Positions 2,923 through 60,418 of a DNA stretch of 64,000 bases are shown here, piece after piece. The position numbers were made by a program, and so were the translations under genes. Within the stretch, counting starts at the first letter, position 1; the number at the start of each line of letters is the position of its first letter. Location of the stretch: the NCBI GenBank assembly GCA_002389045.1, contig DGNS01000009.1:381975-445974 (forward strand), read 5' to 3'. The notes under the pieces are model-generated. The model made no database searches. It worked only from the letters and a program-made list of their open reading frames with translations, and was not told where the DNA came from. This stretch comes from Thiotrichaceae bacterium UBA4486 (GTDB taxonomy: Bacteria; Pseudomonadota; Gammaproteobacteria; Eutrophobiales; Eutrophobiaceae).

Positions 2923-3015
2923 CTCGCAAAGGGGTTCGATCGATTCCCCATGCCGGGCAGGATAGAATTAACGGGGGATCTTACCCACCCGGATCAGCAC
3001 CGGATACTGTTTATT

Positions 3016-5103
3016 TCATCCGGACAAAACCCGGTTGCGGCCCGCGTTCTTGGCTTCATACAACAACTTGTCTGCGCGTTTCAGCGTGTTCTCGAGGCTT
3101 GCGTCGGAATCGGAATTAAACAGTGTTACACCGAAGCTTGAGGTAAAACGAATTTCTCCTTCATCGTGTTTCACTACACTGGCTTCGAAAAAACTGCGCA
3201 GAGACCCGGCAAAAGATATGGCATCTTCCAAACCGGTTTCCGGCAACAAAAACACGAATTCTTCACCGCCTATGCGTGCACAAATGTCGCTGATACGCTG
3301 CCGTTCCCTGCAGACAGCAGCCAGATAGCGGAGGACTGCGTCGCCGGCATCGTGACCGTATGTATCATTGATTGCCTTGAAATGATCGATATCAAAATAA
3401 ATCACTGACAATTCACGGCCATAACGCCGTGCGCGCTGAATTTCCTCCTCACCGCGCCTGAACAATTCCTTTCTGTTTATCAATTCGGTCAAGGCGTCTG
3501 TAGTCGCTTCATAGCGCAATTCCTGCTCGGCAATACGGCGAAACTCCAGTGCACGCACCTCGATCAGGATTTTTCGTATTTCAGCAGCGACAATGTATTC
3601 ACGGCTGTTAAAGGGCTTGCTTTTCCCACGGATTGTCTCTTTCCATGATTCAAACGAGGCGCGTGGGGTCAAGGGCCGCATGGCCGCGGTATCTTCATTC
3701 GACAATCTGGAAGGCTCACCACCCCAGGTTATGGTTTTCAGGTATTCAGCCCTGCCAAAACACAGGTAATCTTTCTCATCCAGATTGATGATAATACCGC
3801 CTGTAAGATACTCCAGCTGGTCATCGGGTAGATTCCAGAGTTGCCCCAGCTGATCCGAAATATAGACAGTATGCTGCATGGCCTCATGATCCGGTGCCAG
3901 AAAGAAACTTCCAGCATGTTTGGGTTCGGTGATGTATTCATCCCCGAATTTCAGAAACAGGCTGTCAGCCTCGAGCAGCGTCATGAGTGTCTGCGCATGA
4001 TGCCTGAAAGCAGTTATAAATCTCTGACCTTTTATGATTTCCCGGGTAAATTCTTCAAGAGCATGTTGTGTCTCATTCTCTAGCAGCACCCTGGACGACG
4101 AACTTAATCTTGCCAGGTGTGAACTTATGGCAACACTCAGGCTCTGGCAGGCCGCACGGGCATGAATCGATACCGTTCTGGCTGCACGGTGATGGCACGC
4201 AATCAAGGCCACCAGTTTCCCTTCAATAACTATGGATATTGAAAGACTGGCCTGTACATTCATATTGCGCAGGTACTGTATATGTACGGGAGCAATACTT
4301 CTGAAAGTGGCATAGGTCAGGTCGGGGCTGCGCCCGTTCAGCGGGTTTTTTTCCGGCTCGATCGGTACAGGTTCAGCATCGATATCAAAGATAAACCGCA
4401 AGGGATTTTTAAGATAGAGTTCACGTGCACGGGCGGGTATATCGGCAGCCGGAAACCTGTGTTCAAGGTAGGATTTGACGGAATTGTCAGCCACTGCCTC
4501 GTTGGTAACGATCCCTGTGCCGTCGCTGTCAAACCGGTAATACATTACCCGGTCATATTGTGTTAGTGCCTGTATTTCAACAACGGCCTGTTGCAGCAAT
4601 TCGTTTTCTGTCTCAACCTGGCCCAACCGGACCAGCGCGGACAGTAATCCATGATGGGCAGTAACCGGATTCAGGTACTCAGTCTCATAGCGTTCGAATT
4701 CAAGCATGATTGCCCCGGAATTTTTATGTGCCGTTATAATCAACTCGTGATTCAAACCTTTATCATCGGTGATATTCACAAGTAATGGCTCATGCATATT
4801 CGGAAACGAGGGTGCCAGATCAACACTGTAAACCAGGGACGCCTGTTCCTCGCCGAGTAATTCATCCAGCTTTCTGCCGAGTAAATCATTCGCTGAAAAG
4901 CCGGTGTAATTTTCGATATTGATGCTGACCTGCAGGATTTTCCCCGTTGCTTCATCTGCGACAAGCAGGGCGCCAAACGGTTGTATACTACCGGGCATAT
5001 GGATGGGTTCGTTTTCACAACCCTCGTAGAGAGCAACACGTGGATCATGTTCATCTGTTGTGAACTGGTTATTCACGGGCGAGGTACTCGTAAAAGCAAT
5101 CAA
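3016..5103 (-). CDS. bphP: bacteriophytochrome photoreceptor with C-terminal GGDEF diguanylate cyclase domain (PAS-GAF-PHY-GGDEF)
   Basis: N-terminal EGCENEPIHMPGSIQPFGALL (biliverdin-binding Cys + EPIH motif), HRFPAADIPARARELY, MHIQYLRNM...ACHH GAF motifs; C-terminus has I-site RISD and an intact GGEEF. Start is non-ATG (TTG at 5103 or GTG at 5076). Confidence 0.85.
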   Translation of the reverse strand: MIAFTSTSPVNNQFTTDEHDPRVALYEGCENEPIHMPGSIQPFGALLVADEATGKILQVSINIENYTGFSANDLLGRKLDELLGEEQASLVYSVDLAPSFPNMHEPLLVNITDDKGLNHELIITAHKNSGAIMLEFERYETEYLNPVTAHHGLLSALVRLGQVETENELLQQAVVEIQALTQYDRVMYYRFDSDGTGIVTNEAVADNSVKSYLEHRFPAADIPARARELYLKNPLRFIFDIDAEPVPIEPEKNPLNGRSPDLTYATFRSIAPVHIQYLRNMNVQASLSISIVIEGKLVALIACHHRAARTVSIHARAACQSLSVAISSHLARLSSSSRVLLENETQHALEEFTREIIKGQRFITAFRHHAQTLMTLLEADSLFLKFGDEYITEPKHAGSFFLAPDHEAMQHTVYISDQLGQLWNLPDDQLEYLTGGIIINLDEKDYLCFGRAEYLKTITWGGEPSRLSNEDTAAMRPLTPRASFESWKETIRGKSKPFNSREYIVAAEIRKILIEVRALEFRRIAEQELRYEATTDALTELINRKELFRRGEEEIQRARRYGRELSVIYFDIDHFKAINDTYGHDAGDAVLRYLAAVCRERQRISDICARIGGEEFVFLLPETGLEDAISFAGSLRSFFEASVVKHDEGEIRFTSSFGVTLFNSDSDASLENTLKRADKLLYEAKNAGRNRVLSG

Positions 5104-5692
5104 ATGTGGCTGCAGCCCCGGATACAGCCTCGTTTATCAATGGTTGTGAACTGCAAAAGGCTTCCGCCCTGCGGCAAAACTGGTTCCAGCTTTTTCCCTG
5201 ATCACTATCCGCGCCGGTGAGAAATCGCAGTCCTGTATCAACTGTCAAATCCAGGGTTTTTGCCAGATGCCCGGCCATGACCCGTCCACCATGCCTGGAA
5301 CCTTCGAGTACATAAAGGCAGCCGACTTCAGCCGCGTCGGAATTAAATAACGGCAACGGTGCCGGGGATTCAGCGACAGGGATGTCCGCCTTCAATACGC
5401 AAAGGTCCGATTCCAGTTCCGCGCTGCGGATCCGGTAACCAAGATTGACCGTCATGGTTCGTCCCGGTTGCGTCAGTAAGTCTTCCAGGGGGCGGTAAAT
5501 TGACAGAAATATCTGCAAAAGCCTGATGTATTCAGTGCGGGTATAATTCTGCCTGAAAATACGCTGCATGGCCGGCAACGATTCCAGCCGTTGATGCCGG
5601 CTACGTGTATCGGCGCGAAGCTGTGTCAGTAAGGCCACGTTAACCAATGTTGTTACTGGCGGTCTCCCGGGTTTTCTCACGGCCATGCGCAT
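5069..5692 (-). CDS. bphO: heme oxygenase (biliverdin-producing, BphO-type)
   Basis: LTQLRADTRSRHQRLE heme-oxygenase N-terminal motif; immediately upstream of bphP on the same strand, overlapping its start. Confidence 0.75.
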   Translation of the reverse strand: MRMAVRKPGRPPVTTLVNVALLTQLRADTRSRHQRLESLPAMQRIFRQNYTRTEYIRLLQIFLSIYRPLEDLLTQPGRTMTVNLGYRIRSAELESDLCVLKADIPVAESPAPLPLFNSDAAEVGCLYVLEGSRHGGRVMAGHLAKTLDLTVDTGLRFLTGADSDQGKSWNQFCRRAEAFCSSQPLINEAVSGAAATFDCFYEYLARE

Positions 5693-11596: not shown

Positions 11597-13564
11597 CTAT
11601 TTGCCGCTGTTCTTTCTGGCTTCGCGGATCTTGCGCAGGGCTTTCTGCAAACCTTCATTGTCCGGTGAGATTTCCAGCGCTTCACGCACGTAATTCTCGG
11701 CCAGTTCGAATTCTCCCGCTTCCAGCGCTTGTTTCAGGTTTCGTTCAAAATTTCGTGCCATGCGTCTGGCCAGGTTACGGGCATCCTGGTCGTCCGGATT
11801 TCTGCTCAGCATCTCCCTTATTTGCAACAGCATACTGCGTTCCTGTTCCGTCATCAGCGAGGTGCGGTCCTGCTCCACCACCGAAGGCAAGTCACCCTGC
11901 GATTGTGTTGATTCTGCTTGTGCAGGCTCCGGACGGTTCTGACGTGACGCCGCGGCTACAGCGGCCCGCATGCGTTGCCGGGCATCATCCAGTCCGGAGT
12001 GAGACGGTTCAACATCGACCGCCTTGCCGAGGTAATTGCGGGCCTGGATCCAGTCCTCACGCATGAGTGCCGCATCCATCAATTCGATGTATTTGCCGGC
12101 AACCGTGTACAGCCCGGTGGCGGCCTCACGGTTTTCCGGCTCGAGCCCCAGCACCTGTTGATATTTTTCCACGGCATTGTTGCCTTCGGGACTGGTCAGG
12201 CGCAGTGCCTCGATATCCTGCCCGGCCACCCGCAGAAGCCGGGCAATCCGGTTCTCTGTGTCTGCGGCGGATTGCGTATCGGTGCTCTCTTCCCCGTCCG
12301 GCGACGACACTGTTGTAGCAGAGGTGCTGTCGGGCAACACGGTCGGAGTTGATCGGTCCGACCCGGCTTCCGCCTGTTGTTGTGGCTGCGGAGTGACCGG
12401 TTTTTGCGGATCTTGCCGGGCATTATGAACGAGTACTGCCAGCAACAGCACTGCAAGCAGGCTGATCCCCCACTTCAGTTTCCGGTGTGTGACGGGCGCA
12501 ACATGCGGCGTTGCCGGTGCCGGTGCCGGTGCCGACGCCGGTTCATCAGCACCGGTGGATACATTGCCGGTAGATTCGAACTGAAAGGTTTCACCCGCGT
12601 TGACCGCAGCCGCGGGCGTGGCTTCCGTCGCAGCATCACCATTCGGATACAGCGGCAGCGTTGCGGCTTCTGAATCCGCGCTAACGCCCGTAAATTCACT
12701 GCGCCATGCGGCAATATCCTGCGGGCGGTCATCGGCCCTGAAGCACAGCGCGTGATCGACAGCGTGCAGAAACGCCTTGCTGAAACCGGCCGGCATAATC
12801 TCCACGGCCGGCACCAGAATGTCCTTGCCGGCGTGCAGCAAGGCCTCACTGCGATCCACGGCATTCGGCGGTGAGCGGCCAACCGTGGCGCGATACAGGG
12901 TGGCGCCCAGTCCGTAGATATCCGTCCACGGTCCCTGCTTGTCACTCTTGCTGACGTATTGTTCAAACGGCGCGAAACCCGGTGAAACCATGGTGGTCAG
13001 CGTCCGTGTCTGCTGGCCGAGCGCCTGGCGCGCCGAACCGAAATCCAGCAGCACCGGTGTGCCGTCCTCGCGCTGGTAAATATTGGCCGGCTTGATGTCG
13101 CGATGAATGAAGCCCATGGCATGGACTTGTTCCAGACCGTCCAGCAAAGGCATGATCAATTGCCGCTGTTCCGCCTCGGGCAACATGCCGCGTTCTTTCA
13201 ACACATCATGCAGGGCACGGCCCTGCTCGTATTCCATGACCATGTAGGCGGTATTGTTGTCGGTGAATACCGTCAGCACCCTGACAATATTCGGGTGCTT
13301 GAAGCGGGCCAGTGTTCTGGCTTCCTTGATGAAGCGATCCAGTCCCCAGGCGTATTGATCACCGTGCTCGCCGGAGACCGGATGCACCGAGTCATCGTCC
13401 TCCCTGAACGCCAGTTCCGTCGGCAGGTATTCCTTGATCGCGACCCGCTGGTTGAGATTGGTATCATCAGCCAGGTAGGTAATGCCGAAACCGCCCTGTC
13501 CGAGGACGTCACGAACCACATACCAGTGCAGCTTGTAGCCGGACGGCAGCGAATGTCTGGCCAT
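11597..13564 (-). CDS. serine/threonine protein kinase with central TM segment and C-terminal TPR-like periplasmic region
   Basis: GQGGFG P-loop, AIKEY, HRDIKPANI, DFGSA, APE-like motifs; hydrophobic WGISLLAVLLLAVLV; C-terminal helical repeats. Confidence 0.8.
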   Translation of the reverse strand: MARHSLPSGYKLHWYVVRDVLGQGGFGITYLADDTNLNQRVAIKEYLPTELAFREDDDSVHPVSGEHGDQYAWGLDRFIKEARTLARFKHPNIVRVLTVFTDNNTAYMVMEYEQGRALHDVLKERGMLPEAEQRQLIMPLLDGLEQVHAMGFIHRDIKPANIYQREDGTPVLLDFGSARQALGQQTRTLTTMVSPGFAPFEQYVSKSDKQGPWTDIYGLGATLYRATVGRSPPNAVDRSEALLHAGKDILVPAVEIMPAGFSKAFLHAVDHALCFRADDRPQDIAAWRSEFTGVSADSEAATLPLYPNGDAATEATPAAAVNAGETFQFESTGNVSTGADEPASAPAPAPATPHVAPVTHRKLKWGISLLAVLLLAVLVHNARQDPQKPVTPQPQQQAEAGSDRSTPTVLPDSTSATTVSSPDGEESTDTQSAADTENRIARLLRVAGQDIEALRLTSPEGNNAVEKYQQVLGLEPENREAATGLYTVAGKYIELMDAALMREDWIQARNYLGKAVDVEPSHSGLDDARQRMRAAVAAASRQNRPEPAQAESTQSQGDLPSVVEQDRTSLMTEQERSMLLQIREMLSRNPDDQDARNLARRMARNFERNLKQALEAGEFELAENYVREALEISPDNEGLQKALRKIREARKNSGK

Positions 13565-25342: not shown

Positions 25343-26578
25343 TCAGTTTTGCTCAATCAACGTTTCCGCCTTGCGGGTCAATTCGGCAAGATCCGCTTCG
25401 CTAAATTTTCGAGCTAGTTTCACCAGCGCCTTGTTCGCCGGTTTGACTCCGGCTTTGGAAGCCGCATAAAGCCACTGGTAGGCCTCGTGTAGATCCTTGC
25501 CCGTACCCTTGCCGGTGTACAACATCATGCCGCAATAATAGCGTGCCGGCCTGGATCCGTTTTTCGCGGCTTTTAATATACATGCATAGGCTTTTTCCGG
25601 ATCCGCTTCAACACCGTCACCGGCCATGTACATTTTACCGAGGGCAAACTGGGCACGGGCATAATCCTGTTCAGCGGCCTGACGCATCCATTTAACAGCG
25701 CGATCCTTATTCACCTTGAATACACGGCCCTTGTGATAGCACCTGGCCAGCACGTAGCAGGCTTTTACATAGCCCTGTTCCGCTGCCGCCTGCAGCCACA
25801 GTTTTGCCGATTCCCGGTTTTTGGTAACACCCTTGCCCTTCAGGTAAAGCAAGCCGAGATCGTATTGCGCGCGGTCATAGCCACTCTCGGCCGCGCGTGT
25901 GCACCAGTGAACCATTTGTTCCATGTCTTTGGGAACGCCACGGCCCTGCTCATACATGAGCGCCAGGTTATACATGGCCTTGTGATAGCCGGTTTCCGCG
26001 GCCTTGCGAAAAGCCTCGACCGCCTCGATGTCATTACGCGGCGTGCCCTCACCCGCCGCCAGCAACATGCCCATGTGCAACAGGGCCCTGCTGTTGCCCT
26101 GTTTTGCCGCCTTGCGATACCAGCGCAAGGCTTCCTCGACATCGGCATCCACGCCGATGCCGATCTCGTACATATAGCCGACGTTGTAACGTGCCCCGCT
26201 ATGACCCCGTTGCGCCGCGCGCAGATACCACTTCCAGGCTTTCTGGTGGTTACGGGGGATCCCCATGCCTTCCTGGTACATCCAGCCGATGTTGGCAAGC
26301 GCGGAGGCATCGTCCTGGTCTGCGGCTTTCTTAAACCAGCCCAGGGCTTTTTCCAGGTTCCTGTCGACACCGATGCCGTTCAGGTACATTTCGCCAAGCC
26401 GCGACTGCGCCCTGGACGATCCCTGCTTCGCTGCCTCGATGAACCAGCGGGCCGCCAGACCGTAATCACGGTTGATGACTTCACCGCTTTCATACAATCC
26501 GGCCAGTGTCAGTTGTGCCGTGATATCGCCGCTTTTGGCGCGCTGGTCAAGATCGGCGATGTGTTGCTTGTCGTACAT
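25343..26578 (-). CDS. Sel1-repeat (TPR-like) protein
   Basis: about 10 tandem ~36-aa repeats of the form A..W..KAA.QG...A...LG.MY..G.GV..D. Confidence 0.85.
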   Translation of the reverse strand: MYDKQHIADLDQRAKSGDITAQLTLAGLYESGEVINRDYGLAARWFIEAAKQGSSRAQSRLGEMYLNGIGVDRNLEKALGWFKKAADQDDASALANIGWMYQEGMGIPRNHQKAWKWYLRAAQRGHSGARYNVGYMYEIGIGVDADVEEALRWYRKAAKQGNSRALLHMGMLLAAGEGTPRNDIEAVEAFRKAAETGYHKAMYNLALMYEQGRGVPKDMEQMVHWCTRAAESGYDRAQYDLGLLYLKGKGVTKNRESAKLWLQAAAEQGYVKACYVLARCYHKGRVFKVNKDRAVKWMRQAAEQDYARAQFALGKMYMAGDGVEADPEKAYACILKAAKNGSRPARYYCGMMLYTGKGTGKDLHEAYQWLYAASKAGVKPANKALVKLARKFSEADLAELTRKAETLIEQN

Positions 26579-27083: not shown

Positions 27084-30000
27084 TTGACTACACGCATGCC
27101 CACCGACCATGGTACGGCAGCAGCCGCCGATGACAGCCGTTTTCGAAGCCTGATCGAAAACAGTAACGATGTCATTTCCCTCGTCGATCGTACCGGCACG
27201 ATCCTCTACAGTTCGCCCTCGGTATACGGGGTTCTCGGTTACGACCCCGATCAACGCCCCGGCCAAAGCATTTTCGAAAACATTCATCCGGAGGATCGGC
27301 CGAGACTGGAAGAAGTCTTCAAACGCTTGCTCAGCGAACCAGGACAGTCCATTCATGCAATCACCCGCTACCAGCACCGCGACGGTCACTGGCTATGGAT
27401 GGAAGGCAGCGCTAAAAACCTGCTCGAAGATCCCGATGTCAGGGCGATTGTCGTCAACTACCGGGACATTACCGAACGCAAGCAAGCCGAGGATAAACTG
27501 GCGGCAAACGAGCAGCGGCTGAGCGTCCTCATGGAGAACCTGCCGGGAATGGTTTACCGCTGCAGGAATGACCCGGACTGGTCCATGGAATTCATGAGTT
27601 CCGGTTGTGTTGATCTCACCGGTTACAGTGCGGATGACTTTCTGTCCGGTCGCATTCGCTATCACGATATCATCCATCCGGATGACCGGGATCGGGTCTG
27701 GAACGAGGTTCAGGATGCGCTGGCCGGCAAGACGCGATTCAGGATTGAGTACCGTATTCGCACGGCAACCGGTGAGGAAAAACAGGTATGGGAACAGGGC
27801 TGTGGAATTTGGGAAAGCAATGCGGATGTACTCGCGCTTGAAGGCTTCATTACCGATGTAACAGAACGCAGGAAAATAGAAGACGAGCTCCGGACCAAAA
27901 CTCGTGATCTGAACGAGCGGGTCAAGGAAATCACCTGCATCAATATCATCAGCGCCATATTTGATGAACCGGGCAGCAGCCTTGATGAACAGATTGAAAG
28001 GGTTGTTAACACCATTCCGGATGCAATGCAGTATGCGGAGATTTCCTGTGCGAGGATCGGTCTTGATGATAAAACTTTCTCTACAACCAACTTCGATCAC
28101 CCGGTTGCAACTCTATCCCGGGATATCGTTGTAAATAAAACTGCAATCGGAACAATCGACATCGGTTATCTCGAACAACGTCCGGGAACGGATACGGATC
28201 CTTTCCTTGACGAGGAAAAAGATCTGGTCAGTATCATTGCCAGCAAACTGGCGCAGCATCTTGAGAACAAGCGTATCGAGCAGGAACTGGTTGAATCAGA
28301 GCGTTTCGCCAACGCCACTATCAACGGGCTTTCCGCCCACATAGCCATCATTGACAGGACCGGCACTATCCTGCATATCAACCGGGCCTGGAAACAGTTC
28401 GCCGAGAATAATTCCACGGAAATCCGTGCCCTGTGTACCGGGGCTAATTATCTCGATGTTTGCGACAGGGCCTCCAGGCTTGCCGGCGATACCATTGCAG
28501 CACAATTTGCCGATTGCATCCGTTCGGTGCTGGCCGGCGAGATCTCCGAATTCGTTCTTGAGTATCCCTGTCATTCGCCCGAAGAACAACGCTGGTTCCA
28601 GGGCCGGATCACGCCGTTCCCCGGCGAGGGCCCGGCAAAAGCCATTGTTGCCCATGAGAACATCACCGATCGCAAACTCAGTGAGGCCGCACTGGGCGCC
28701 AGCGAGGAGCGATTACGGCTGGCGCTGGACGCAGCCCACATGGGCACGTTCGACTGGGACATCCGGAAAAATCACATCACCTGGTCACGCTGGCACGAAG
28801 AACTCTGGGGATATGAATCCGGTGAGTTTGACGGTACCTATGAGGCCTTTGAACAGCGCATACATCCGGATGATCTTCCCGGGATCAACGCGGATATCGA
28901 ACGCTGCATAGACACGCATGTGCCTTTTATTCGTGAATTCCGGGTTGTCTGGCCGGACGACAGTATACACTGGATCCAGGCCCGGGGTGAATTCACTTAC
29001 CCCGCAGATGATTCCGCCGACCGTATGCGCGGTGTGGTCATTGAAATCACCGAACGAAAACAAACCGAGCAGGCCCTGCGCCGTGAACACGATTTTTCCA
29101 ATGCGCTGCTGAACAGTCTTCCCGGTATTGTCTATTGCTTTGACGAAAACCTGAATTTCCTGCGTTGGAACAGAAATTTTGAAAACATCAGTGGTTACAC
29201 CGGTGAAGAGATCGCCAACAGCCGGCCTCTGGACTTTTTCTCAGGCGACGACCGGGAACTGATCCGGCGGTGTATCGGGGAAGTATTCGAAAAGGGTCAG
29301 GCCGAGACTGAAGCCGGCTTCGTAAGCCAAGATGGCAAGGTTATACCCTACTATTTTACCGGCATGCACGCCGATATCGGCGGGAAAACCTGCCTCGTGG
29401 CCGTCGGCATTGATATTACCGCTATCAGGCAAAAGGATGAGGCCCTAAGGATCAGTGAAGCCCAGCTTTCCAACGCGCTGGAAATCGCCCGGGCCGGATA
29501 TTGGGAATACGATGTCGCCACGGATCGGTTTACATTCAACGATCATTTCTATGCCATATTCCGCACCTCCGCCGAGCGTGAGGGCGGTTACAGCATGTCT
29601 CCGGCCGAATACGCCGGCAGGTTTGTACACCCGGACGACAGGGATGTAGTCGACAGGGAAGTCAAAGCCGCCCTGGAAACCACGGATCCGGATTTCACCC
29701 GTGAACTTGAACACCGGGCCATCTTCGCCGACGGCGAAACCGGTTACATTGCCGTACGGGTATTCATAAAGAAGGATGACTCCGGGAAAACCGTCAAAAC
29801 CTACGGCATCAACCAGGACATCACGCAACGCAAGGAAGCGGAGCAGCGCCTGACCCTGCTAAATTTCGCCCTTAACCATGCGAGTGAGGCCAGCTACCTG
29901 ATGGACAGGCAGGGCCGCTTCCTGGATGTCAACAGGGAAGCCTGCCGTGCACTGGGTTATACACGGGATGAGTTACTGGCAATGAAGGTCTTTGACATTG

Positions 30001-32414
30001 ACCCGGGTCTGACAATTGAAGCATGGAACAGGTACTGGAAGACGATCAAGAAGTCAGGCACCACGACCCTTGAGGCAAATCACTGGCGCAAGGACGGCAG
30101 CTCATTCCCGGTGGAAATTACCGCCAATTATTTCAGGTTTGAAGGCAAGGAGTACGATCTGGCGCTGGCCCGCGATATCACCGAACGGAAAATAGCCGAA
30201 TCCGCATTGAAAGAAAATGAAATGCGTTTCAGGAATGTAGCCAGAGCGACATCGGATATTGTCTGGGACTGGAATCTGAACACCGATTCAGTCTGGTGGA
30301 ATGATGGCATACATACCCAGTTCGGATACCAGCCCGGCGAACTGGAAAAAGACAGGTCATCGTGGAGCCATCGCATACATCCTGACGACAGGGCACGGGT
30401 GATTGAAAGCATTCACAAGGTAATCGAGGCCGGGGAGGAAAACTGGTCGGACGAATACCGCTTCAGACATAAAAACGGCAACTATGTCTATGTCAGTGAT
30501 CGCGGTTACGTGGTGCGTAATGACAAGGGCAGGGCCGTGCGCATGGTCGGCGGCATGACCGATATCAGCGAGCGTAAGGCAGCGGAAGCCAAAATCATGC
30601 GGCTGAACCGCGTCTACAGGATGCTGAGTGAAATCAACTCGTTGATCGTGCATGTCCAGGACCGCCAACAATTGTTCGAGGAGGCCTGCCGTATTGCCGT
30701 CGAGGATGGCGGCTTTTTGCTGGCCTGGGTCGGCGGTGTTGACAGTGAAACCGGCCAGGTCACCCCTCTCGCTTACAGCGGCAAACACGACTACCTGGAA
30801 AACGTCCATATCACCATGGACCCGGACAAACCCGGCGGCAGGGGACCCACGGCCATCGCCCTGCGCAACGCGAAGCCATCGATTTGTAACGACATCAAAT
30901 CCGACCCGAGCATGGCCCCCTGGCGGCAACGGGCGCTTGCACGGGGCTTCGTATCCTGCGCCGCCATACCGCTCAGCGAAGCGGGCAAGGTGATTGGCGC
31001 CATCAACCTGTACGCGGGCGAAACCGGATTTTTTGACGATGAAGAGATGAAGCTGCTTAATGAACTTGCAACTGATGTTGCCTATGCCTGTGAGAATATT
31101 TCCCGGAAGGAAAAACTTGAATATATCGCCTCTTTTGATCAACTCACCGGCCTCGCCAACCGCCACCTGTTCAATGAACATCTGAATTCCGTACTTGGAC
31201 GGGCCAGAAAAAACAACAAAAAAGTCGCCCTGCTGGTTTGCGATCTGAAGAAATTCCGTCATATAAATAACCTGTACGGCCGCAAGGCCGGAGACCGGAT
31301 CATCCAGGAAACGGCACGCCGGTTGAAAAAACAGACCTCCGATCCGGTCAATATCGGCCGGCTTACCAACGATTACTTCGCCATGATCCTGCACGATGTG
31401 CGCGATTCCACCGGCATCGCCTACATGTTCGAAAATATCCTGTTCCCGTCAATGAATGCGCCATTCCGGATTGACGACCTTGAAATACAGGTCGGTTTCC
31501 GGGGCGGCATAGCCGTGTATCCGACCGATGGCAGCGATGCTGAAGAACTCTACAGGAGTGCAGAAGCCGCGTTGAAGCGCGCCAAAAATTCCGGTGAAGA
31601 ATACGTTTTCTATCAACCGGAGATGACCAACCGTATCGCCGAAACCCTGAAGCTGGAAAACAAGTTGCGCAGCGCCCTGGACAAGGATCAATTTGTCCTG
31701 CACTACCAGCCGAAAATCAACACGGTGACCCGGAATATATGCGGCCTTGAAGCCCTGATCCGCTGGAATGATCCGGAGACCGGGCTGGTGCCCCCGGGAG
31801 ATTTCATTCCGATCCTGGAGGAGACCGGGCTCATCCTCGATGTCGGCCTCTGGGCGCTGCGCAGGGCGGCAAGCGATTACCGCCGCTGGACGGCGGAGTT
31901 TGCAGCCGTACCCACGATCGCCGTCAACGTCTCGGCTGCGCAGTTGCATCAGGCGGATTTTGCCCGGCAAATACTCAAGGCCGTGGAACACGACGGTGAA
32001 ACCACGCCGGTAGACCTGGAAATCACCGAAAGCATGATCATGGTGAACATCGAGCAGAATATCGAAAAACTCGGTGTTCTGCGCCAGGCGGGGATCGGCA
32101 TTGACATCGATGATTTCGGCACCGGGTATTCATCCCTGAGCTACATCGCCAGTCTGCCGATCGATGCGCTGAAAATCGACCGCTCGTTTATCACCAACAT
32201 GACCACGCAGCCACAAAGCCTGACCATTGTCACCAGTATCATCAGCCTTGCGCATTCCCTGGATCTGAAAGTGGTCGCCGAGGGCGTCGAAAACGAGGAA
32301 CAGGCAAAATACCTGCGTTTGCTGAATTGCGATGAAATGCAGGGCTTTTTATTCAGTAAACCGCTACCGGCGGAGGAAATCACCGCACTTTTACAGTCCG
32401 GCGTTATAAAATAA
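27084..32414 (+). CDS. 1776-aa multi-PAS/PAC-GAF sensor protein with degenerate GGDEF and intact EAL domain (probable c-di-GMP phosphodiesterase)
   Basis: at least 8 PAS/PAC units (repeating ...HPDDR...W...G...DITERK). GAF domain. GGDEF position reads GRLTNDYFAMIL (no GG[DE]EF). EAL domain has EALIRW, DDFGTGYSSLSYI, KIDRSFI, EGVENEEQ. Start is TTG 27084 or ATG 27096. Confidence 0.85.
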   Translation: MTTRMPTDHGTAAAADDSRFRSLIENSNDVISLVDRTGTILYSSPSVYGVLGYDPDQRPGQSIFENIHPEDRPRLEEVFKRLLSEPGQSIHAITRYQHRDGHWLWMEGSAKNLLEDPDVRAIVVNYRDITERKQAEDKLAANEQRLSVLMENLPGMVYRCRNDPDWSMEFMSSGCVDLTGYSADDFLSGRIRYHDIIHPDDRDRVWNEVQDALAGKTRFRIEYRIRTATGEEKQVWEQGCGIWESNADVLALEGFITDVTERRKIEDELRTKTRDLNERVKEITCINIISAIFDEPGSSLDEQIERVVNTIPDAMQYAEISCARIGLDDKTFSTTNFDHPVATLSRDIVVNKTAIGTIDIGYLEQRPGTDTDPFLDEEKDLVSIIASKLAQHLENKRIEQELVESERFANATINGLSAHIAIIDRTGTILHINRAWKQFAENNSTEIRALCTGANYLDVCDRASRLAGDTIAAQFADCIRSVLAGEISEFVLEYPCHSPEEQRWFQGRITPFPGEGPAKAIVAHENITDRKLSEAALGASEERLRLALDAAHMGTFDWDIRKNHITWSRWHEELWGYESGEFDGTYEAFEQRIHPDDLPGINADIERCIDTHVPFIREFRVVWPDDSIHWIQARGEFTYPADDSADRMRGVVIEITERKQTEQALRREHDFSNALLNSLPGIVYCFDENLNFLRWNRNFENISGYTGEEIANSRPLDFFSGDDRELIRRCIGEVFEKGQAETEAGFVSQDGKVIPYYFTGMHADIGGKTCLVAVGIDITAIRQKDEALRISEAQLSNALEIARAGYWEYDVATDRFTFNDHFYAIFRTSAEREGGYSMSPAEYAGRFVHPDDRDVVDREVKAALETTDPDFTRELEHRAIFADGETGYIAVRVFIKKDDSGKTVKTYGINQDITQRKEAEQRLTLLNFALNHASEASYLMDRQGRFLDVNREACRALGYTRDELLAMKVFDIDPGLTIEAWNRYWKTIKKSGTTTLEANHWRKDGSSFPVEITANYFRFEGKEYDLALARDITERKIAESALKENEMRFRNVARATSDIVWDWNLNTDSVWWNDGIHTQFGYQPGELEKDRSSWSHRIHPDDRARVIESIHKVIEAGEENWSDEYRFRHKNGNYVYVSDRGYVVRNDKGRAVRMVGGMTDISERKAAEAKIMRLNRVYRMLSEINSLIVHVQDRQQLFEEACRIAVEDGGFLLAWVGGVDSETGQVTPLAYSGKHDYLENVHITMDPDKPGGRGPTAIALRNAKPSICNDIKSDPSMAPWRQRALARGFVSCAAIPLSEAGKVIGAINLYAGETGFFDDEEMKLLNELATDVAYACENISRKEKLEYIASFDQLTGLANRHLFNEHLNSVLGRARKNNKKVALLVCDLKKFRHINNLYGRKAGDRIIQETARRLKKQTSDPVNIGRLTNDYFAMILHDVRDSTGIAYMFENILFPSMNAPFRIDDLEIQVGFRGGIAVYPTDGSDAEELYRSAEAALKRAKNSGEEYVFYQPEMTNRIAETLKLENKLRSALDKDQFVLHYQPKINTVTRNICGLEALIRWNDPETGLVPPGDFIPILEETGLILDVGLWALRRAASDYRRWTAEFAAVPTIAVNVSAAQLHQADFARQILKAVEHDGETTPVDLEITESMIMVNIEQNIEKLGVLRQAGIGIDIDDFGTGYSSLSYIASLPIDALKIDRSFITNMTTQPQSLTIVTSIISLAHSLDLKVVAEGVENEEQAKYLRLLNCDEMQGFLFSKPLPAEEITALLQSGVIK

Positions 32415-32501
32415 GCCGGTTGGCCCGATGCGGATTTTCTCTCGCGGTGGTCAATACCGTATCATGTGGACCACTCACCGTTTTGACAGTAATGAATAAC
32501 C

Positions 32502-32750
32502 ATGGAAAAAAGTGCACTTCACGTTGTTTCTGAAAAATACGATCCGCGCTTCGGCCAGATCGCCGTCGACCTCGGCTTTATTACCCATGCGCAATTAAAA
32601 GAAGCGCTGTGCCGGCAAATTGATGAAAATCTCGCCGGCGGCAAACATCGCCTGCTGGGAACCATACTCTTTGACATGGACCTGATGAGCAGCGAACAGA
32701 TTGAAAAAGTACTGAATGTGCTTTTTTCAGGGCACAGCAACTCTGCCTGA
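32502..32750 (+). CDS. small stand-alone MshEN (T2SSE_N)-like domain protein, candidate c-di-GMP receptor
   Basis: RFGQIAVDLGFITHAQLKEALCRQ fits the 24-residue MshEN motif RLGxx(LVI)(LVI)xxG(LFVI)(LVI)xxxxLxxxLxxQ. A 5-residue spacer and a weaker second copy (LLGTILFDMDLMSSEQIEKVL) follow. Confidence 0.5.
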   Translation: MEKSALHVVSEKYDPRFGQIAVDLGFITHAQLKEALCRQIDENLAGGKHRLLGTILFDMDLMSSEQIEKVLNVLFSGHSNSA

Positions 32751-57926: not shown

Positions 57927-59759
57927 ATGAAATTAAACCGGCTATTGCTTGTTATTCCCATACTTGTCACCGCAATCGGGGCCGCTGGTTGGTGGTTAGT
58001 CCATTCAGAGGCTGTATACCAGTCCAGGCTGCAGAATATTTATTCAGTCGGTGCGGATATCGACGCCGTCATTCTGATAGTCAAACTGCGCCATCTACAA
58101 GATCCGTTAACTGATTCCATGCTGGTCGATACTCTTGGCTCACTCGAGGAGAACATCAATGCTTTAATGACAAGTGGTGGTACGGGCAAATACACGGTAT
58201 CCGATCAAACACTCACCCGGTTCGAGGAATTTGAATCCGTCTGGCACTCTGCCATTTATCCACGTCTGCAATGGCTGGCAAGAGACAGCATTCGTCGGTT
58301 CAGCCCGGCAGAACAAACCCATCTACTCAATATTTTAAGGGAAAATCGATCGGATATTGAACAAATCGGCACCATGATATCTGCACACAGGTCGTTCACT
58401 TCAATACTGATTATCGGCATCGGCCTGCTTTCAATCATTCTTTCCTTTGCCCTGGTACTGCTCCTGTACAGGTCCCCGAAAATAATAAAACGGGTTAAAA
58501 CAGTACAGGATGGCAGCCATGAAAAACCACGTACAGCAAAGCCTGCGCATAATGGCGCAGGGTCAGCTGATATCAGCACTAACACAATAATCGATTACCA
58601 GTCCGACAATACCGCCAGGGAACAACTGGCGCTTGAAGCACTGACCCAACTCGTCAAACAACCCGAGTCCACGAAACCTTTTGTTTTACTGTTAAATGAT
58701 ATTGAAAAACTGAGTGGCGCGCTGTCAAGTGCTATCTTCGTGGCTACGGATCCGTCATCAGAGTTATCTCTATGGACATCTACTGATCCGGATGACACCG
58801 GTTGGCAAACAATCGTAGTTGACAATAAATTACCGAATACCGGAATGATCGAAAGTGATACTAATATGATGGAATCGATTGAAATGCCCGGAGAAGTGCC
58901 GGTAAAGTATTACTTTACACGTCTTTGTCACGCTTCTGATGATTTTTCAATCCTGGTACTGAAATGCCCGGCAAACCATAGTTTACCGGATTCCCTGAAT
59001 AATATATTCAGCGACCATATAGAGCGACTTACGAATATTGTATCCAGTGTAAGATTTGCCCGGCTGAAACTTCGTCATGCCCAGTACGAGGAACGTGCGG
59101 TTATCGCAAGGGAATTGCATGATTCGCTGGCACAGTCCCTGTCCTATCTGAAAATACAGACCAGCCGCCTGCAAAAGATACTTACAGCCAGCGAAATGCA
59201 GGAACACAGTAATTCAATCGAAATTGATGCAATCATGCAGGATATCCGTATCAACCTTAATATCGCCTATCGTCATTTACGAGAACTGATCAGTACCTTC
59301 AGACTGACCATGGGAGGCAAGGATTTTTCCCAGGCACTCATGGATTCAGTCGGTGAATTTGCCAAACGCAGCAGTATCGCTTTTGATATCGATAACCGTT
59401 TGCCATCCGGAGTACTGACGGTCGGCGAGGAAACCCAGTTATTGCATATTATCAGGGAATCACTTTCCAATATTGTCAGACATTCCCGCGCCAGGCTTGC
59501 CTTGATTTCCATTCACTACAATCATGGCCAGGTAAAAGCCTCGATAGAGGACGACGGTGTAGGATTAATCAACATATCTGACCAGGAACAGCACTTTGGT
59601 ATTATATTGATGCAGGAGAGAGCACACTCCATTGGTGGCAGTATAAATTTATCTGAAAGATCCGGTGGCGGAACATGTTTGATTGTCAGATTTCAGACTG
59701 AAAAACACGCCGATATTGATACATCGGAAGTTGTACAGAAACAGGGCAATATTGCATGA
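57927..59759 (+). CDS. sensor histidine kinase, NarX/UhpB (HisKA_3) type, with periplasmic helical sensor and cytoplasmic GAF-like module
   Basis: two TM helices flanking a ~140-aa periplasmic domain; ARELHDSLAQSLSYLKIQ HisKA_3 H-box; HATPase_c with N, G1, G2 boxes. Confidence 0.8.
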   Translation: MKLNRLLLVIPILVTAIGAAGWWLVHSEAVYQSRLQNIYSVGADIDAVILIVKLRHLQDPLTDSMLVDTLGSLEENINALMTSGGTGKYTVSDQTLTRFEEFESVWHSAIYPRLQWLARDSIRRFSPAEQTHLLNILRENRSDIEQIGTMISAHRSFTSILIIGIGLLSIILSFALVLLLYRSPKIIKRVKTVQDGSHEKPRTAKPAHNGAGSADISTNTIIDYQSDNTAREQLALEALTQLVKQPESTKPFVLLLNDIEKLSGALSSAIFVATDPSSELSLWTSTDPDDTGWQTIVVDNKLPNTGMIESDTNMMESIEMPGEVPVKYYFTRLCHASDDFSILVLKCPANHSLPDSLNNIFSDHIERLTNIVSSVRFARLKLRHAQYEERAVIARELHDSLAQSLSYLKIQTSRLQKILTASEMQEHSNSIEIDAIMQDIRINLNIAYRHLRELISTFRLTMGGKDFSQALMDSVGEFAKRSSIAFDIDNRLPSGVLTVGEETQLLHIIRESLSNIVRHSRARLALISIHYNHGQVKASIEDDGVGLINISDQEQHFGIILMQERAHSIGGSINLSERSGGGTCLIVRFQTEKHADIDTSEVVQKQGNIA

Positions 59760-60418
59760 ATGATAAAAAGATCAATACTGTACTGATCATTGATGACCAT
59801 CCATTGTTTCGAAAAGGTGTCATTGAACTTCTGAACAGTCAGCCTGATTTCGAGGTAATTGGCGAGGCCGCGTCAGGTGAAGAAGGTGTCGGCATGGCAG
59901 TTGAATTAAACCCGGATATTGTTCTGACCGACCTTAATATGAAGGGTATGGGCGGTATTAATGTTGTGAAAGCTATTAGAAATACCGAACTTCAGTCATT
60001 CAATATAATACTTACCGTGTCGGATACAGAGGAAAACCTGTTAACTGCCCTTCGTTCAGGTGCGGATGGTTATCTGCTCAAGGATACAGAACCGGAGATG
60101 ATAATCGATAAACTGAGAAGTTCCCTGAAAGGCGAAATTGTTGTGGATGAAAGCCTGACCAGGCTCGTCACAAACACCCTGCGTGATACGAAGCGCTGGG
60201 TACCAAACGACCAGAATATTCTGTCGGAACGTGAAACTGAAATTATCAAACTTATTCTCCGGGGTATGAGTAACAAGTTGATTGCCAGGGAGCTTGGAAT
60301 CACTGAAGGGACAGTAAAGGTTCATGTAAAGAACCTGTTGAGAAAACTGAATCTGAAATCACGACTGGAAGCAGCATTATGGGCAATTGAACATGGATTT
60401 ACAGACCAGAACACATGA
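59756..60418 (+). CDS. NarL/FixJ-family response regulator
   Basis: REC domain (LIIDDHPLFRKG, LTDLNMKG) plus LuxR HTH (LSERETEIIKLILRGMSNKLIARELGITEGTVKVHVKNLL); start overlaps the kinase stop. Confidence 0.85.
   Translation: MNDKKINTVLIIDDHPLFRKGVIELLNSQPDFEVIGEAASGEEGVGMAVELNPDIVLTDLNMKGMGGINVVKAIRNTELQSFNIILTVSDTEENLLTALRSGADGYLLKDTEPEMIIDKLRSSLKGEIVVDESLTRLVTNTLRDTKRWVPNDQNILSERETEIIKLILRGMSNKLIARELGITEGTVKVHVKNLLRKLNLKSRLEAALWAIEHGFTDQNT

What the first reader, a model, noticed from the sequence alone, without database searches (positions are those of the whole stretch)
32502..32750. Stand-alone 82-aa MshEN-like protein immediately downstream of a giant PAS-GAF-EAL phosphodiesterase
The small ORF contains RFGQIAVDLGFITHAQLKEALCRQ, which fits the c-di-GMP-binding MshEN motif at 23 of 24 positions. 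The exact 5-residue spacer follows, then a weaker second repeat. MshEN domains are normally the N-termini of MshE/GspE-type ATPases; a free-standing one 87 nt after an EAL-domain gene looks like a dedicated c-di-GMP receptor or adaptor paired with that enzyme. The window has three other GGDEF/EAL proteins (BphP-GGDEF; the 1776-aa protein; the degenerate PAS-GGDEF-EAL at 60415), so this is a c-di-GMP-dense neighbourhood.
Basis: partly seen in the sequence, partly recalled or inferred. Interest (0 to 1): 0.65.

Follow-up and report, generated by a model that had tools for sequence, protein, structure and literature searches.

The report
Small stand-alone MshEN-type c-di-GMP receptor candidate
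An 82-residue protein encoded just after a c-di-GMP-degrading enzyme is a free-standing copy of the helical c-di-GMP-binding module of MshE-type ATPases; it belongs to a widespread, unstudied family of small proteins that often, though not always, sit beside c-di-GMP genes.

Summary
The ORF at 32502..32750 (+) is real and is homologous to the N-terminal four-helix subdomain of MshEN (MshEN_N). It passes NCBIfam NF053729, 'c-di-GMP_motif, MshE-related' (52.6 bits, cutoff 38). The AlphaFold model superposes on V. cholerae MshEN bound to c-di-GMP at 1.1 A over 62 columns. The first 24-residue half-site is well kept.

It starts at L51-L52-G53 after an 11-residue spacer, not 5. It lacks the terminal Gln (L74) and, in this copy, the turn Gly (D60).

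The protein is not unusual in being free-standing. A profile search finds 3112 50%-identity cluster representatives, and 98 of the best 150 are 120 aa or shorter. All named members are 'hypothetical protein'.

Pairing with this EAL gene holds only in close relatives. Across 26 lineages, however, 5 of 44 immediate neighbours carry GGDEF, EAL or PilZ domains, against 1 of 193 other genes in the same loci (p about 0.001).

The most likely reading is a single-domain c-di-GMP receptor or adaptor that acts through protein contacts. Binding is inferred, not shown. I rate it a new variant of a known kind, of moderate interest.

The parts
32502..32750 (+). Gene for the 82-aa stand-alone MshEN_N-like protein (stop codon included)
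   Evidence: ORF listing. The exact protein is on record on 15 contigs, named 'hypothetical protein'. Homologues of 42-99% identity share the same N-terminus. NCBIfam NF053729 scores 52.6 bits against a cutoff of 38. AF2 mean pLDDT is 83, with helices at 5-12, 17-23, 29-44, 52-58 and 64-79.
32547..32618 (+). Half-site I (residues 16-39, RFGQIAVDLGFITHAQLKEALCRQ): predicted contacts for the first GMP moiety. R16 stacks on the base, G18 gives the backbone amide to guanine, L32/L36 form the hydrophobic platform, and Q39 bonds the ribose-phosphate.
   Evidence: Full match to the relaxed Wang-2016 motif and 8 of 11 strict positions. Counts out of 111 aligned sequences (110 small homologues plus the query): R16 96, F17 108, G18 104, Q39 110. 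Aligned to MshE R9-Q32.
32619..32651 (+). Extended spacer (residues 40-50, IDENLAGGKHR). It has a conserved acidic patch (positions 41-43) and near-invariant H49-R50. It is 6 residues longer than the MshE spacer.
   Evidence: Profile alignment to 5htl shows a 6-residue deletion in MshE here. Of the small homologues that have both features, 58 of 59 have the HRhhG start exactly 10 residues after half-site I. H49 is kept in 100 and R50 in 99 of 111. In the model, helix 2 runs on to residue 44 and is followed by a loop at 45-51.
32652..32723 (+). Half-site II (residues 51-74, LLGTILFDMDLMSSEQIEKVLNVL), a diverged copy. The L-L-G start and the hydrophobic I67/L71 are kept. The turn Gly is D60 and the terminal Gln is L74.
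   Evidence: Mapping L51=R38, L52=L39, G53=G40 of MshE. G53 is kept in 106 of 111. Position 60 is G in 66 and D in 18. Position 74 is always hydrophobic (L67 M20 V9 I8). Leu at motif position 1 occurs naturally in the nanomolar binder PilF GSPII-B (L196; PMC11731258).
32415..32501 (+). 87-nt intergenic gap between the EAL gene and the small gene
   Evidence: No sigma-70-like promoter and no + strand terminator-like site was found, so co-transcription is possible but not shown. The gap is not alignable to the corresponding gap in the 87%-identical relative L001, although the flanking genes are 92-93% identical in DNA.
27084..32414 (+). Upstream neighbour: 1776-aa sensor protein with 7 PAS stretches, GAF, degenerate GGDEF and EAL; a probable c-di-GMP phosphodiesterase
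   Evidence: Pfam: PAS families, GAF_2, GGDEF (E 3e-33), EAL (E 4e-71). TNDYF stands at the GGDEF site. EALIR, DDFGTG, EGVE and QGF are intact.

Best explanation
The gene encodes a single-domain member of the MshEN_N family, the N-terminal four-helix subdomain of MshE/PilB-type ATPases that binds one extended c-di-GMP molecule through two pseudo-symmetric 24-residue half-sites.

Shown here:
- Homology to MshEN_N.
- The four-helix fold.
- Near-invariance across the family of the residues that contact the ligand in half-site I (R16, F17, G18, Q39) and of the Gly that starts helix 3 (G53).
- Wide distribution of free-standing homologues.
- Enrichment of the family next to c-di-GMP genes.

Inferred mechanism: the protein binds c-di-GMP. 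One guanine lies between R16 and the L32/L36/L52 cluster. The other lies between L51 and the F17/I67/L71 cluster. The backbone amides of G18 and G53 bond to the guanine N7/O6, and Q39 bonds to the ribose-phosphate. Because the protein has no output domain, the ligand-bound form, which in MshEN_N-type domains becomes ordered on binding, would act by binding and regulating another protein, as single-domain PilZ adaptors do.

In this genome the adjacent multi-PAS EAL phosphodiesterase may set the local c-di-GMP level that the receptor sees. That pairing is lineage-specific and is not a defining feature of the family.
For: NCBIfam NF053729 (a 53-position model of the MshE c-di-GMP motif) scores 52.6 bits against a cutoff of 38, E 2.9e-14. 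All 13 close family members pass.

The profile of 65 small homologues hits MshE 5htl at E 2.5e-5, PilF at 9e-8 and Geobacter PilB at 1e-4, with contiguous alignments over both half-sites.

The AF2 model has pLDDT 83, and above 90 in the core. Foldseek against the PDB returns only MshEN/GSPII domains as its top 14 hits. The best is 5htl_B, the c-di-GMP complex, at rmsd 1.1 A over 62 columns and probability 1.00.

Conservation across 111 aligned sequences (110 small homologues plus the query) is concentrated on ligand-contact positions.

From the literature: the isolated V. cholerae MshEN_N (construct 1-62 in the paper's main text, listed as 1-65 in its Supplementary Table 6) binds c-di-GMP at KD 0.35 uM, so the C-terminal subdomain is dispensable (PMC5013675). 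Leu at motif position 1 is natural in PilF GSPII-B and favours affinity, and the consensus was extended to (R/K/L)LG (PMC11731258). Ile in place of Leu at the platform positions costs only 2.4-fold (PMC12002112). Proven binders have spacers of 5-7 residues (PilF GSPII-C and Geobacter PilB alignments).

P15 precedes R16, so helix 1 cannot extend N-terminally. Such an extension blocks binding in PilF GSPII-A.

Genomic context: 5 of 44 adjacent genes in 26 lineages carry GGDEF, EAL or PilZ, against 1 of 193 non-adjacent genes; Fisher one-sided p = 9e-4 (loci).

The same unit is fused to REC, Rrf2, Ser/Thr kinase and FHA domains, as expected of a signalling input module.
Against: Half-site II departs from the published motif. 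The terminal Gln is replaced by a hydrophobic residue throughout the family (L74). The turn Gly is Asp in this copy (D60). The spacer is 11 residues rather than 5.

Both Gln residues bond to the ligand backbone in PilF GSPII-B. The Q218E mutant lost 77-fold in affinity.

Even a perfect consensus does not guarantee binding, as PilF GSPII-A with a restored motif and D. geothermalis PilB_3 show.

The protein is mildly acidic (net charge -3, pI 5.7), whereas the MshEN_N face that meets the ligand is basic.

Pfam T2SSE_N does not hit.

The neighbourhood statistic rests on crude ORF calls and on few, not strictly independent, lineages.
Confidence: 0.6

Rival explanations
1. It is a degenerate MshEN_N scaffold that keeps the fold but no longer binds c-di-GMP. 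It serves only as a small protein-protein interaction module, as the N-terminal domains of XpsE/GspE bind XpsL and the N-terminus of Xanthomonas PilB binds PilZ.
For: Half-site II lacks Gln24 family-wide, this copy lacks the turn Gly, and the spacer is 11 residues. Non-binding MshEN relatives with good-looking motifs are documented: PilF GSPII-A, D. geothermalis PilB_3 and XpsE. The structural hit list includes the PilB(N-terminus)-PilZ complex 7lkm. The conserved acidic patch at 41-43 together with H49-R50 could be a structural latch or an interaction surface rather than a ligand site (inference).
Against: The strongest conservation falls on residues whose known role is ligand contact, not fold: R16, the two Gly that must lack a side chain (G18, G53), and Q39, kept in 110 of 111. 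The non-binders cited carry changes at these very positions (G11V, R38G and G40L in XpsE; S39 and A41 in GSPII-A). The family is enriched next to c-di-GMP enzymes.
Confidence: 0.2
2. It is a dedicated local partner of the adjacent 1776-aa PAS-GAF-GGDEF*-EAL phosphodiesterase. On this view it is co-transcribed with the enzyme and physically associated with it, either as its private receptor or as a regulator of its activity. It is a narrower version of the best explanation, not an exclusive rival to it, so this confidence does not add with the others to one.
For: Same strand, an 87-nt gap, and no predicted + strand terminator or promoter in the gap. The pairing is kept in all contigs of this species and in an 87%-identical relative. 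Other family members lie 9 nt before a PAS-GGDEF-EAL gene (L026) and 88 nt after a HAMP-GGDEF gene (L050). Local DGC-receptor pairing is documented for the MshEN protein NfrB (PMC8669469; title and abstract only).
Against: The pairing is absent in every relative below about 87% identity. Six Gallionella/Nitrosomonadales-type loci have folB upstream instead, and others are heterogeneous. The neighbouring c-di-GMP gene differs in kind from lineage to lineage (PDE, DGC, PilZ). The intergenic sequence is not conserved even between the two close relatives. No interaction evidence exists.
Confidence: 0.15
3. It binds a different nucleotide, such as 3'3'-cGAMP, c-di-AMP or pGpG (the linear product of EAL enzymes), because the second half-site has been remodelled.
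For: MshEN binds cGAMP weakly (PMC5013675; section heading and Figure 1 legend). One half-site is canonical and the other is systematically altered (L74, the longer spacer, invariant H49-R50), which could suit an asymmetric ligand (inference). The gene lies next to an EAL enzyme that would produce pGpG.
Against: No positive evidence. G53 and the hydrophobic platform of half-site II are kept as in guanine-binding sites. Neighbours include cyclases and PilZ, not only EAL enzymes.
Confidence: 0.05
4. It is a chance ORF in an intergenic region, not a gene.
For: No obvious Shine-Dalgarno sequence before the ATG. Against the 87% relative there are 11 non-synonymous and 6 synonymous codon differences.
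Against: Homologues of the same length and register occur across Gammaproteobacteria, Nitrosomonadales, Nitrospirota, Desulfobacterota and Thermodesulfovibrionia, with invariant core residues. The fold prediction is confident. The non-synonymous changes lie mostly in the unconserved tails.
Confidence: 0.01

Closest known systems
MshEN_N, the N-terminal four-helix subdomain of V. cholerae MshE (PDB 5HTL). The isolated construct (1-62 in the main text, 1-65 in Supplementary Table 6) binds c-di-GMP at KD 0.35 uM (Wang et al. 2016, PMC5013675).
   Same: Same fold (rmsd 1.1 A over 62 columns). Same order of two 24-residue half-sites. Half-site I is conserved at every ligand-contact position. The module is sufficient for binding without the C-terminal subdomain.
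   Different: This is a natural free-standing protein, not a truncation. The spacer is 11 residues, not 5. Half-site II starts L-L-G rather than R-L-G, and has Asp in place of the turn Gly and Leu in place of the terminal Gln. Position 2 of half-site I is Phe rather than Leu. There is no ATPase and no MshEN_C subdomain.
GSPII-B and GSPII-C domains of Thermus thermophilus PilF (PDB 8PDK, 8PE0; PMC11731258, PMC12002112)
   Same: GSPII-B naturally has Leu at position 1 of half-site II, as this protein does, and binds at 6 nM. GSPII-C has a 7-residue spacer and Pro at that position. Both show that the motif tolerates these variations.
   Different: Those domains keep both terminal Gln residues and the turn Gly, carry the C-terminal alpha/beta subdomain, and are part of a pilus ATPase.
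Other 'MshEN_N only' architectures listed by Wang et al. 2016 (Supplementary Table 4): the tandem (MshEN_N)2 protein cce_1044 of Cyanothece, REC-MshEN_N Bd2402 of Bdellovibrio, and MshEN_N-AAA_31 EpsG
   Same: MshEN_N is used without the T2SSE_N1 subdomain as a portable input module. The EpsG N-terminus gives a weak hit to residues 11-42. Tandem and REC-fused versions of this exact variant unit exist.
   Different: The part of Supplementary Table 4 read here does not list a single, unfused MshEN_N protein. The cce_1044 units have spacers only 2-3 residues longer than MshE.
Single-domain PilZ adaptor proteins (for example MapZ/PA4608), named from my own knowledge as the functional analogy
   Same: A small c-di-GMP-binding domain with no output domain, which works by ligand-dependent binding to a partner protein.
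   Different: Unrelated fold (beta-barrel) and unrelated binding motif. No homology.

Membership tests
MshEN_N / GSPII N-terminal subdomain (homology) | Sequence profile match above a curated threshold | tested here: met
   NCBIfam NF053729 'c-di-GMP_motif, MshE-related': 52.6 bits against a cutoff of 38, E 2.9e-14, profile positions 1-50 of 53. All 13 of 13 close relatives match. The family profile hits 5htl at E 2.5e-5.
MshEN_N / GSPII N-terminal subdomain (homology) | Four-helix bundle fold that superposes on solved MshEN_N | tested here: met
Canonical 53-residue c-di-GMP-binding motif of MshEN | Half-site I: RLGxx(L/V/I)(L/V/I)xxG(L/V/I)(L/V/I)xxxxLxxxLxxQ | tested here: met
   All positions of the authors' relaxed search motif match. 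Of the 11 strict positions, 8 match, and the three departures are hydrophobic-for-hydrophobic (F17, A21, F26).
Canonical 53-residue c-di-GMP-binding motif of MshEN | Half-site II with the same consensus, including Gly at position 10 and Gln at position 24 | tested here: not met
   L51-L52-G53 fits the extended (R/K/L)LG start, and I67/L71 are hydrophobic. Position 10 is D60, though it is G in 66 of 111 aligned family sequences. Position 24 is L74, hydrophobic in 104 of 111.
Canonical 53-residue c-di-GMP-binding motif of MshEN | 5-residue spacer between the two half-sites | tested here: not met
   The spacer is 11 residues (I40-R50), with a 6-residue gap in MshE in the profile alignment. The spacing is fixed in 58 of 59 small homologues that have both features. 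Proven binders vary only from 5 to 7 residues.
Canonical 53-residue c-di-GMP-binding motif of MshEN | Binds c-di-GMP 1:1 with micromolar or better affinity | not testable with these tools
   No ligand docking or binding assay is available. The claim is inferred from conservation of contact residues and from genomic context.
Full MshEN / T2SSE_N domain (Pfam PF05157) of MshE/GspE/PilB ATPases | N-terminal helical subdomain plus C-terminal alpha/beta subdomain (about 145 aa), fused to a T2SSE ATPase | tested here: not met
   No PF05157 hit even at E <= 1; the only weak hits are DUF4388 and FumaraseC_C. The protein has 82 aa and is all-helical. No ATPase gene is adjacent.
Conserved receptor-enzyme gene pair with the upstream EAL phosphodiesterase | Co-occurrence of the small gene with an orthologue of the upstream gene across genomes | tested here: not met
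   The pairing is kept only at 87-100% identity. It is absent in the other 25 lineages. A general enrichment for c-di-GMP genes as neighbours is present: 5 of 44 against 1 of 193.

The most novel reading that the evidence does not exclude
These small proteins, about 80 aa long, are a distinct, widespread and so far unstudied class of single-domain c-di-GMP adaptors. Their remodelled second half-site has an 11-residue hairpin with an acidic patch and invariant His-Arg, and Leu in place of the terminal Gln. On this reading the hairpin acts as a ligand-gated latch, or shifts ligand specificity towards an asymmetric ligand such as pGpG or cGAMP. In this genome the protein would work in a local signalling pair with the adjacent multi-PAS EAL phosphodiesterase.
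Probability: 0.15. Interest if true: 0.7.

Novelty: new variant of a known kind. Interest (0 to 1): 0.42.

Why it matters
Many bacteria encode dozens of c-di-GMP synthases and hydrolases but few recognised receptors. Only PilZ and MshEN, and lately ComFB, are regarded as widespread receptor domains (PMC12448109).

MshEN is usually looked for as the N-terminus of secretion or pilus ATPases. A family of free-standing MshEN_N proteins would add a class of small adaptors comparable to single-domain PilZ proteins. It would also help to fill the receptor gap in Nitrosomonadales, Nitrospirota, Desulfobacterota and this gammaproteobacterial lineage. Members of this family carry no Pfam domain and are annotated 'hypothetical protein'.

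The conserved departure in the second half-site offers a natural test of which motif positions are needed for binding.

One homologue, WP_148896540.1, is in the cultured Geothermobacter ehrlichii. It lies between a HAMP-GGDEF gene and a sensor kinase gene, so experiments are feasible.

Tried and rejected
- **Pfam on the 82-aa protein.** There was no T2SSE_N hit. The only hits were sub-threshold DUF4388 and FumaraseC_C. I took these as cross-hits to the helix-turn-helix repeat, not as family assignments.
Rejected: it matches 5 of 11 positions, has no (R/K/L)-h-G start, and disagrees with the profile alignments and the helix boundaries.
- **A register starting at R50 (R-L-L-G).** Rejected: Gly falls at position 4.
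- **Conserved partner gene.** All-against-all clustering of neighbours found only lineage-local synteny: folB, plsY and ppsA in Gallionella-type loci, a hybrid PAS kinase in one deltaproteobacterial group, and BrnT/BrnA in another. There is no universal partner.
- **dN/dS against the 87% relative.** Uninformative: 17 differing codons, mostly in the tails.
- **Promoter and terminator scan of the gap.** Nothing on the + strand, which is weak evidence either way.
- **Rfam scan of the window.** No c-di-GMP riboswitch or any other family.
- **Literature search for 'single-domain/orphan MshEN'.** It returned nothing relevant. No paper read here describes a natural unfused MshEN_N protein.
- **cce_1044 as an experimental proxy for this variant.** Rejected: its spacers are only 2-3 residues longer than MshE, and it is not in the ITC table.
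Full report
**What is there**

Window 32502..32750 (+) holds an ATG-started ORF of 82 codons:

MEKSALHVVSEKYDPRFGQIAVDLGFITHAQLKEALCRQIDENLAGGKHRLLGTILFDMDLMSSEQIEKVLNVLFSGHSNSA

It begins 87 nt after the stop of a 1776-aa protein at 27084..32414 (+). Pfam describes that protein as seven PAS stretches, a GAF domain, a GGDEF domain (E 3e-33) and an EAL domain (E 4e-71). Its GGDEF signature is degenerate (TNDYF). The EAL signatures EALIR, DDFGTG, EGVE and QGF are intact, so it is probably a phosphodiesterase.

Downstream on the opposite strand lie a fructosamine kinase and a low-molecular-weight phosphotyrosine phosphatase. A DUF938 methyltransferase follows on the + strand.

The window also encodes a bacteriophytochrome-GGDEF protein (3016..5103, -) and a PAS-GGDEF-EAL protein (60415..62553, +).

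The exact small protein is on record on 15 metagenomic and genomic contigs of up to 578 kb, named 'hypothetical protein'.

The organism is an uncultured lineage. Its RibBA is 100% identical to a protein on a 578-kb contig. The next relative is only 68% identical, and the named hits at 58-60% are Gammaproteobacteria, Chromatiales and Candidatus Parabeggiatoa MAGs.

**Is it a gene, and is the motif more than chance?**

A first search found twelve homologues of 80-93 aa and 42-99% identity. They share the N-terminus and 15 invariant residues.

A profile search of 1.84 billion cluster representatives gave 3112 hits at E <= 1e-3 and 543 at E <= 1e-10. Of the best 150, 98 are 120 aa or shorter with a single unit, and 20 are 121-210 aa, several of them tandem pairs. 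The remaining 32 are longer proteins with one to eight units.

The relaxed motif that Wang et al. used for database searches occurs once in the six-frame translation of the 64-kb window, at this ORF. Shuffles give 0.12 on average. The ORF is a real, conserved gene.

**What family?**

- **Pfam.** It has no model that fits. T2SSE_N does not hit, and only DUF4388 (16.7 bits) and FumaraseC_C appear below threshold.
- **NCBIfam.** NF053729, 'c-di-GMP_motif: cyclic di-GMP-binding domain-containing protein, MshE-related', is a 53-position model. It scores 52.6 bits against a curated cutoff of 38 (E 2.9e-14). It matches all 13 sequences of alignment A1.
- **Solved structures.** The single sequence finds T. 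thermophilus PilF (E 8e-4) and V. cholerae MshE. The profile of 65 small homologues finds PilF (9e-8), MshE 5htl (2.5e-5) and Geobacter PilB (1e-4).
- **Predicted structure.** AlphaFold2 on the 13-sequence alignment gives mean pLDDT 83, and above 90 for residues 21-70. Helices lie at 17-23, 29-44, 52-58 and 64-79, with a low-confidence N-terminal helix.
- **Fold search.** Foldseek against the PDB returns only MshEN/GSPII domains in its top 14 places. First is the MshE:c-di-GMP complex 5htl_B (rmsd 1.1 A over 62 columns, probability 1.00).

The protein is therefore a free-standing copy of MshEN_N, the helical subdomain that holds the ligand. It has no MshEN_C alpha/beta subdomain and no ATPase.

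**Anatomy of the two half-sites**

Half-site I, residues 16-39:
- It matches the relaxed motif at every position and 8 of the 11 specified strict positions.
- The departures are F17 for Leu, A21 and F26.

Half-site II, register:
- The profile alignment to 5htl is contiguous apart from a 6-residue deletion in MshE inside the spacer. It maps H49 to G36, R50 to R37, L51 to R38, L52 to L39 and G53 to G40.
- The real half-site II is therefore L51...L74, after an 11-residue spacer.

Conservation across 111 aligned sequences (110 small homologues plus the query):

| Position | Kept in |
|---|---|
| R16 | 96 |
| F17 | 108 |
| G18 | 104 |
| A21 | 105 |
| G25 | 101 |
| Q39 | 110 |
| H49 | 100 |
| R50 | 99 |
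| G53 | 106 |
| I55 | 105 |

- Position 60, the turn Gly of the motif, is G in 66 and D in 18. It is D here.
- Position 74, the terminal Gln of the motif, is always hydrophobic.
- The spacer carries a conserved acidic patch, [DE][DE][DN], at positions 41-43.
- The 10-residue distance from the end of half-site I to the Arg of H-R-h-h-G is fixed in 58 of 59 small homologues that have both features.

This is a coherent subfamily signature, not random decay.

**What the literature says about such departures**

- In MshEN, the position-1 residue stacks on the guanine.
- The Gly-3 amide bonds to N7/O6.
- The two Leu at positions 17 and 21, with Leu-2 of the other motif, form the platform under the base.
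- The terminal Gln bonds to the phosphate and the 2'-OH (PMC5013675; PMC11731258).
- The isolated MshEN_N (construct 1-62 in the main text, 1-65 in Supplementary Table 6) binds at KD 0.35 uM.
- PilF GSPII-B naturally has Leu at position 1 of half-site II. L196R weakens binding four-fold, and the authors extended the consensus to (R/K/L)LG.
- Ile for Leu at the platform costs 2.4-fold. Ala for Gly-3 costs about 10-fold. Ser at position 1 abolishes binding.
- The Q190E and Q218E mutants lose 158-fold and 77-fold, yet still bind at sub-micromolar KD. The double mutant does not bind.
- Spacers of 7 residues occur in PilF GSPII-C and Geobacter PilB.
- A perfect consensus is not sufficient. GSPII-A with a restored motif does not bind until its extended helix 1 and its inter-subdomain contacts are removed. 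D. geothermalis PilB_3 shows no detectable binding.

Applied to this protein, the start triplets, both Gly-3 residues, all platform residues and Q39 are compatible with binding. P15 prevents an N-terminal extension of helix 1. The missing second Gln, D60 and the long spacer are the uncertain points.

**Genomic context**

The pairing with the EAL gene is kept in the same species and in an 87%-identical relative. In that relative the intergenic sequence is unalignable, although the flanking genes are 92-93% identical.

More distant relatives sit elsewhere:
- after folB in six Gallionella/Nitrosomonadales-type loci;
- beside a histidine kinase, a sigma-54 regulator and multihaem cytochromes;
- beside an aspartyl protease and folE2, BrnT toxins, or a patatin-Omp85 protein;
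- beside AddAB and MscL;
- beside hybrid PAS kinases.

Independent lineages do lie next to c-di-GMP genes:
- a PAS-GGDEF-EAL gene 9 nt downstream (L026);
- a PilZ gene upstream (L009-L011);
- a HAMP-GGDEF gene 88 nt upstream in the cultured Geothermobacter ehrlichii (L050);
- a convergent GAF-GGDEF gene in a Thermodesulfovibrionia MAG (L051).

I used crude ORF calls and phmmer seeds over 55 loci, collapsed to 26 lineages. Of 44 immediate neighbours, 5 carry GGDEF, EAL or PilZ, against 1 of 193 other genes in the same loci (Fisher one-sided p = 9e-4). I treat this as supporting evidence, not proof.

The same variant unit also occurs in tandem, and fused to REC domains. Related units are fused to an Rrf2 regulator, Ser/Thr kinases, FHA domains and zinc ribbons. 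That is typical of a signalling input module.

**Most likely function**

It is a single-domain c-di-GMP receptor of the MshEN_N type (confidence about 0.6). Binding and the contact scheme are inferred from homology. With no output domain, the protein would act by ligand-dependent binding to a partner. That partner is unknown and probably differs between lineages. Here the adjacent phosphodiesterase is a candidate for local control, but no conserved pairing supports this (sub-hypothesis, about 0.15).

The main rival is a binding-dead scaffold (about 0.2). A changed ligand specificity (about 0.05) and a spurious ORF (about 0.01) are minor.

**Comparison and novelty**

The module, its fold and its first half-site are those of a known receptor domain, and an NCBI curated model already recognises it. 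Three things are not described in the papers read here:
- a natural, unfused, single MshEN_N protein, which is absent from the part of the 2016 architecture table read here;
- the conserved variant second half-site with the 11-residue hairpin;
- the size of this family, whose named members are all 'hypothetical' and carry no Pfam domain.

I rate it a new variant of a known kind, with interest 0.42. It is a useful lead for the missing-receptor problem in c-di-GMP signalling, but it is not surprising in kind, and its key property is untested.

Noticed in passing
window 27084..32414 (+): The giant upstream sensor has seven PAS stretches and a GAF domain. Its GGDEF domain has TNDYF at the active site and no RxxD I-site at the usual place. 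Its EAL domain has all catalytic signatures. It is probably a phosphodiesterase with a regulatory pseudo-cyclase domain. Public gene callers start it 4 codons later, giving 1772 aa.
   Followed up: partly
window 57927..62553 (+): A HisKA_3 histidine kinase, a LuxR-type response regulator and a PAS-GGDEF-EAL protein overlap by 4 nt at each junction. They look like one operon that links a two-component system to c-di-GMP turnover. The GGDEF and EAL scores of the last protein are low (63 and 96 bits), so either domain may be degenerate.
   Followed up: no
window 3016..5103 (-) and 5069..5692 (-): A bacteriophytochrome (PAS_2-GAF-PHY) is fused to a GGDEF domain, which suggests a light-regulated diguanylate cyclase. 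A 207-aa ORF overlaps its start. It might be a haem oxygenase, but I did not check.
   Followed up: no
proteins P0015, P0036, P0073, P0103 (multi-repeat relatives found): Pfam PF10415 (FumaraseC_C) scores above its gathering threshold on proteins made of MshEN_N-like repeats, for example 55.7 bits against a cutoff of 32.5 on P0015. These proteins have nothing else in common with fumarase, so the hits look like cross-hits to the repeat. If so, Pfam lacks a dedicated MshEN_N model, and such proteins risk being mislabelled FumaraseC_C or DUF4388.
   Followed up: partly
L005 6138-6392, L006, L008/L012, L021, L024, L048 (folB immediately upstream); L013 (folE2 downstream): In Gallionella/Nitrosomonadales-type genomes the small gene directly follows folB (dihydroneopterin aldolase), overlapping it or at most 31 nt away. 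In one other lineage it lies beside folE2 (GTP cyclohydrolase I type 2). This may be plain synteny or a link to GTP/pterin metabolism. It is unexplained.
   Followed up: partly
L019 5035-5427 and 5545-5748; L037 352-534 and 777-1184: Two family members are encoded side by side in two loci. Together with the tandem two-unit proteins (P0018, P0019, P0027), this hints that the unit may work as a pair.
   Followed up: no
window 32415..32501 compared with L001 9919..10000: The 87-nt gap before the small gene cannot be aligned between the window and its 87%-identical relative, although the genes on either side are 92-93% identical in DNA. The gap seems to have been replaced or to evolve very fast.
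   Followed up: partly
L026 1066-3130: The PAS-GGDEF-EAL gene that follows the small gene in this metagenomic contig is split between two overlapping frames (1066-2232 and 1991-3130). This is either a sequencing frameshift or a pseudogene.
   Followed up: no
window 11597..13564 (-) and 25343..26578 (-): The window contains a 655-aa Ser/Thr protein kinase and a 411-aa protein with seven Sel1 repeats. Together with the many PAS proteins this shows a neighbourhood dense in signalling genes. No Rfam family, including the c-di-GMP riboswitches, reaches threshold anywhere in the window.
   Followed up: partly
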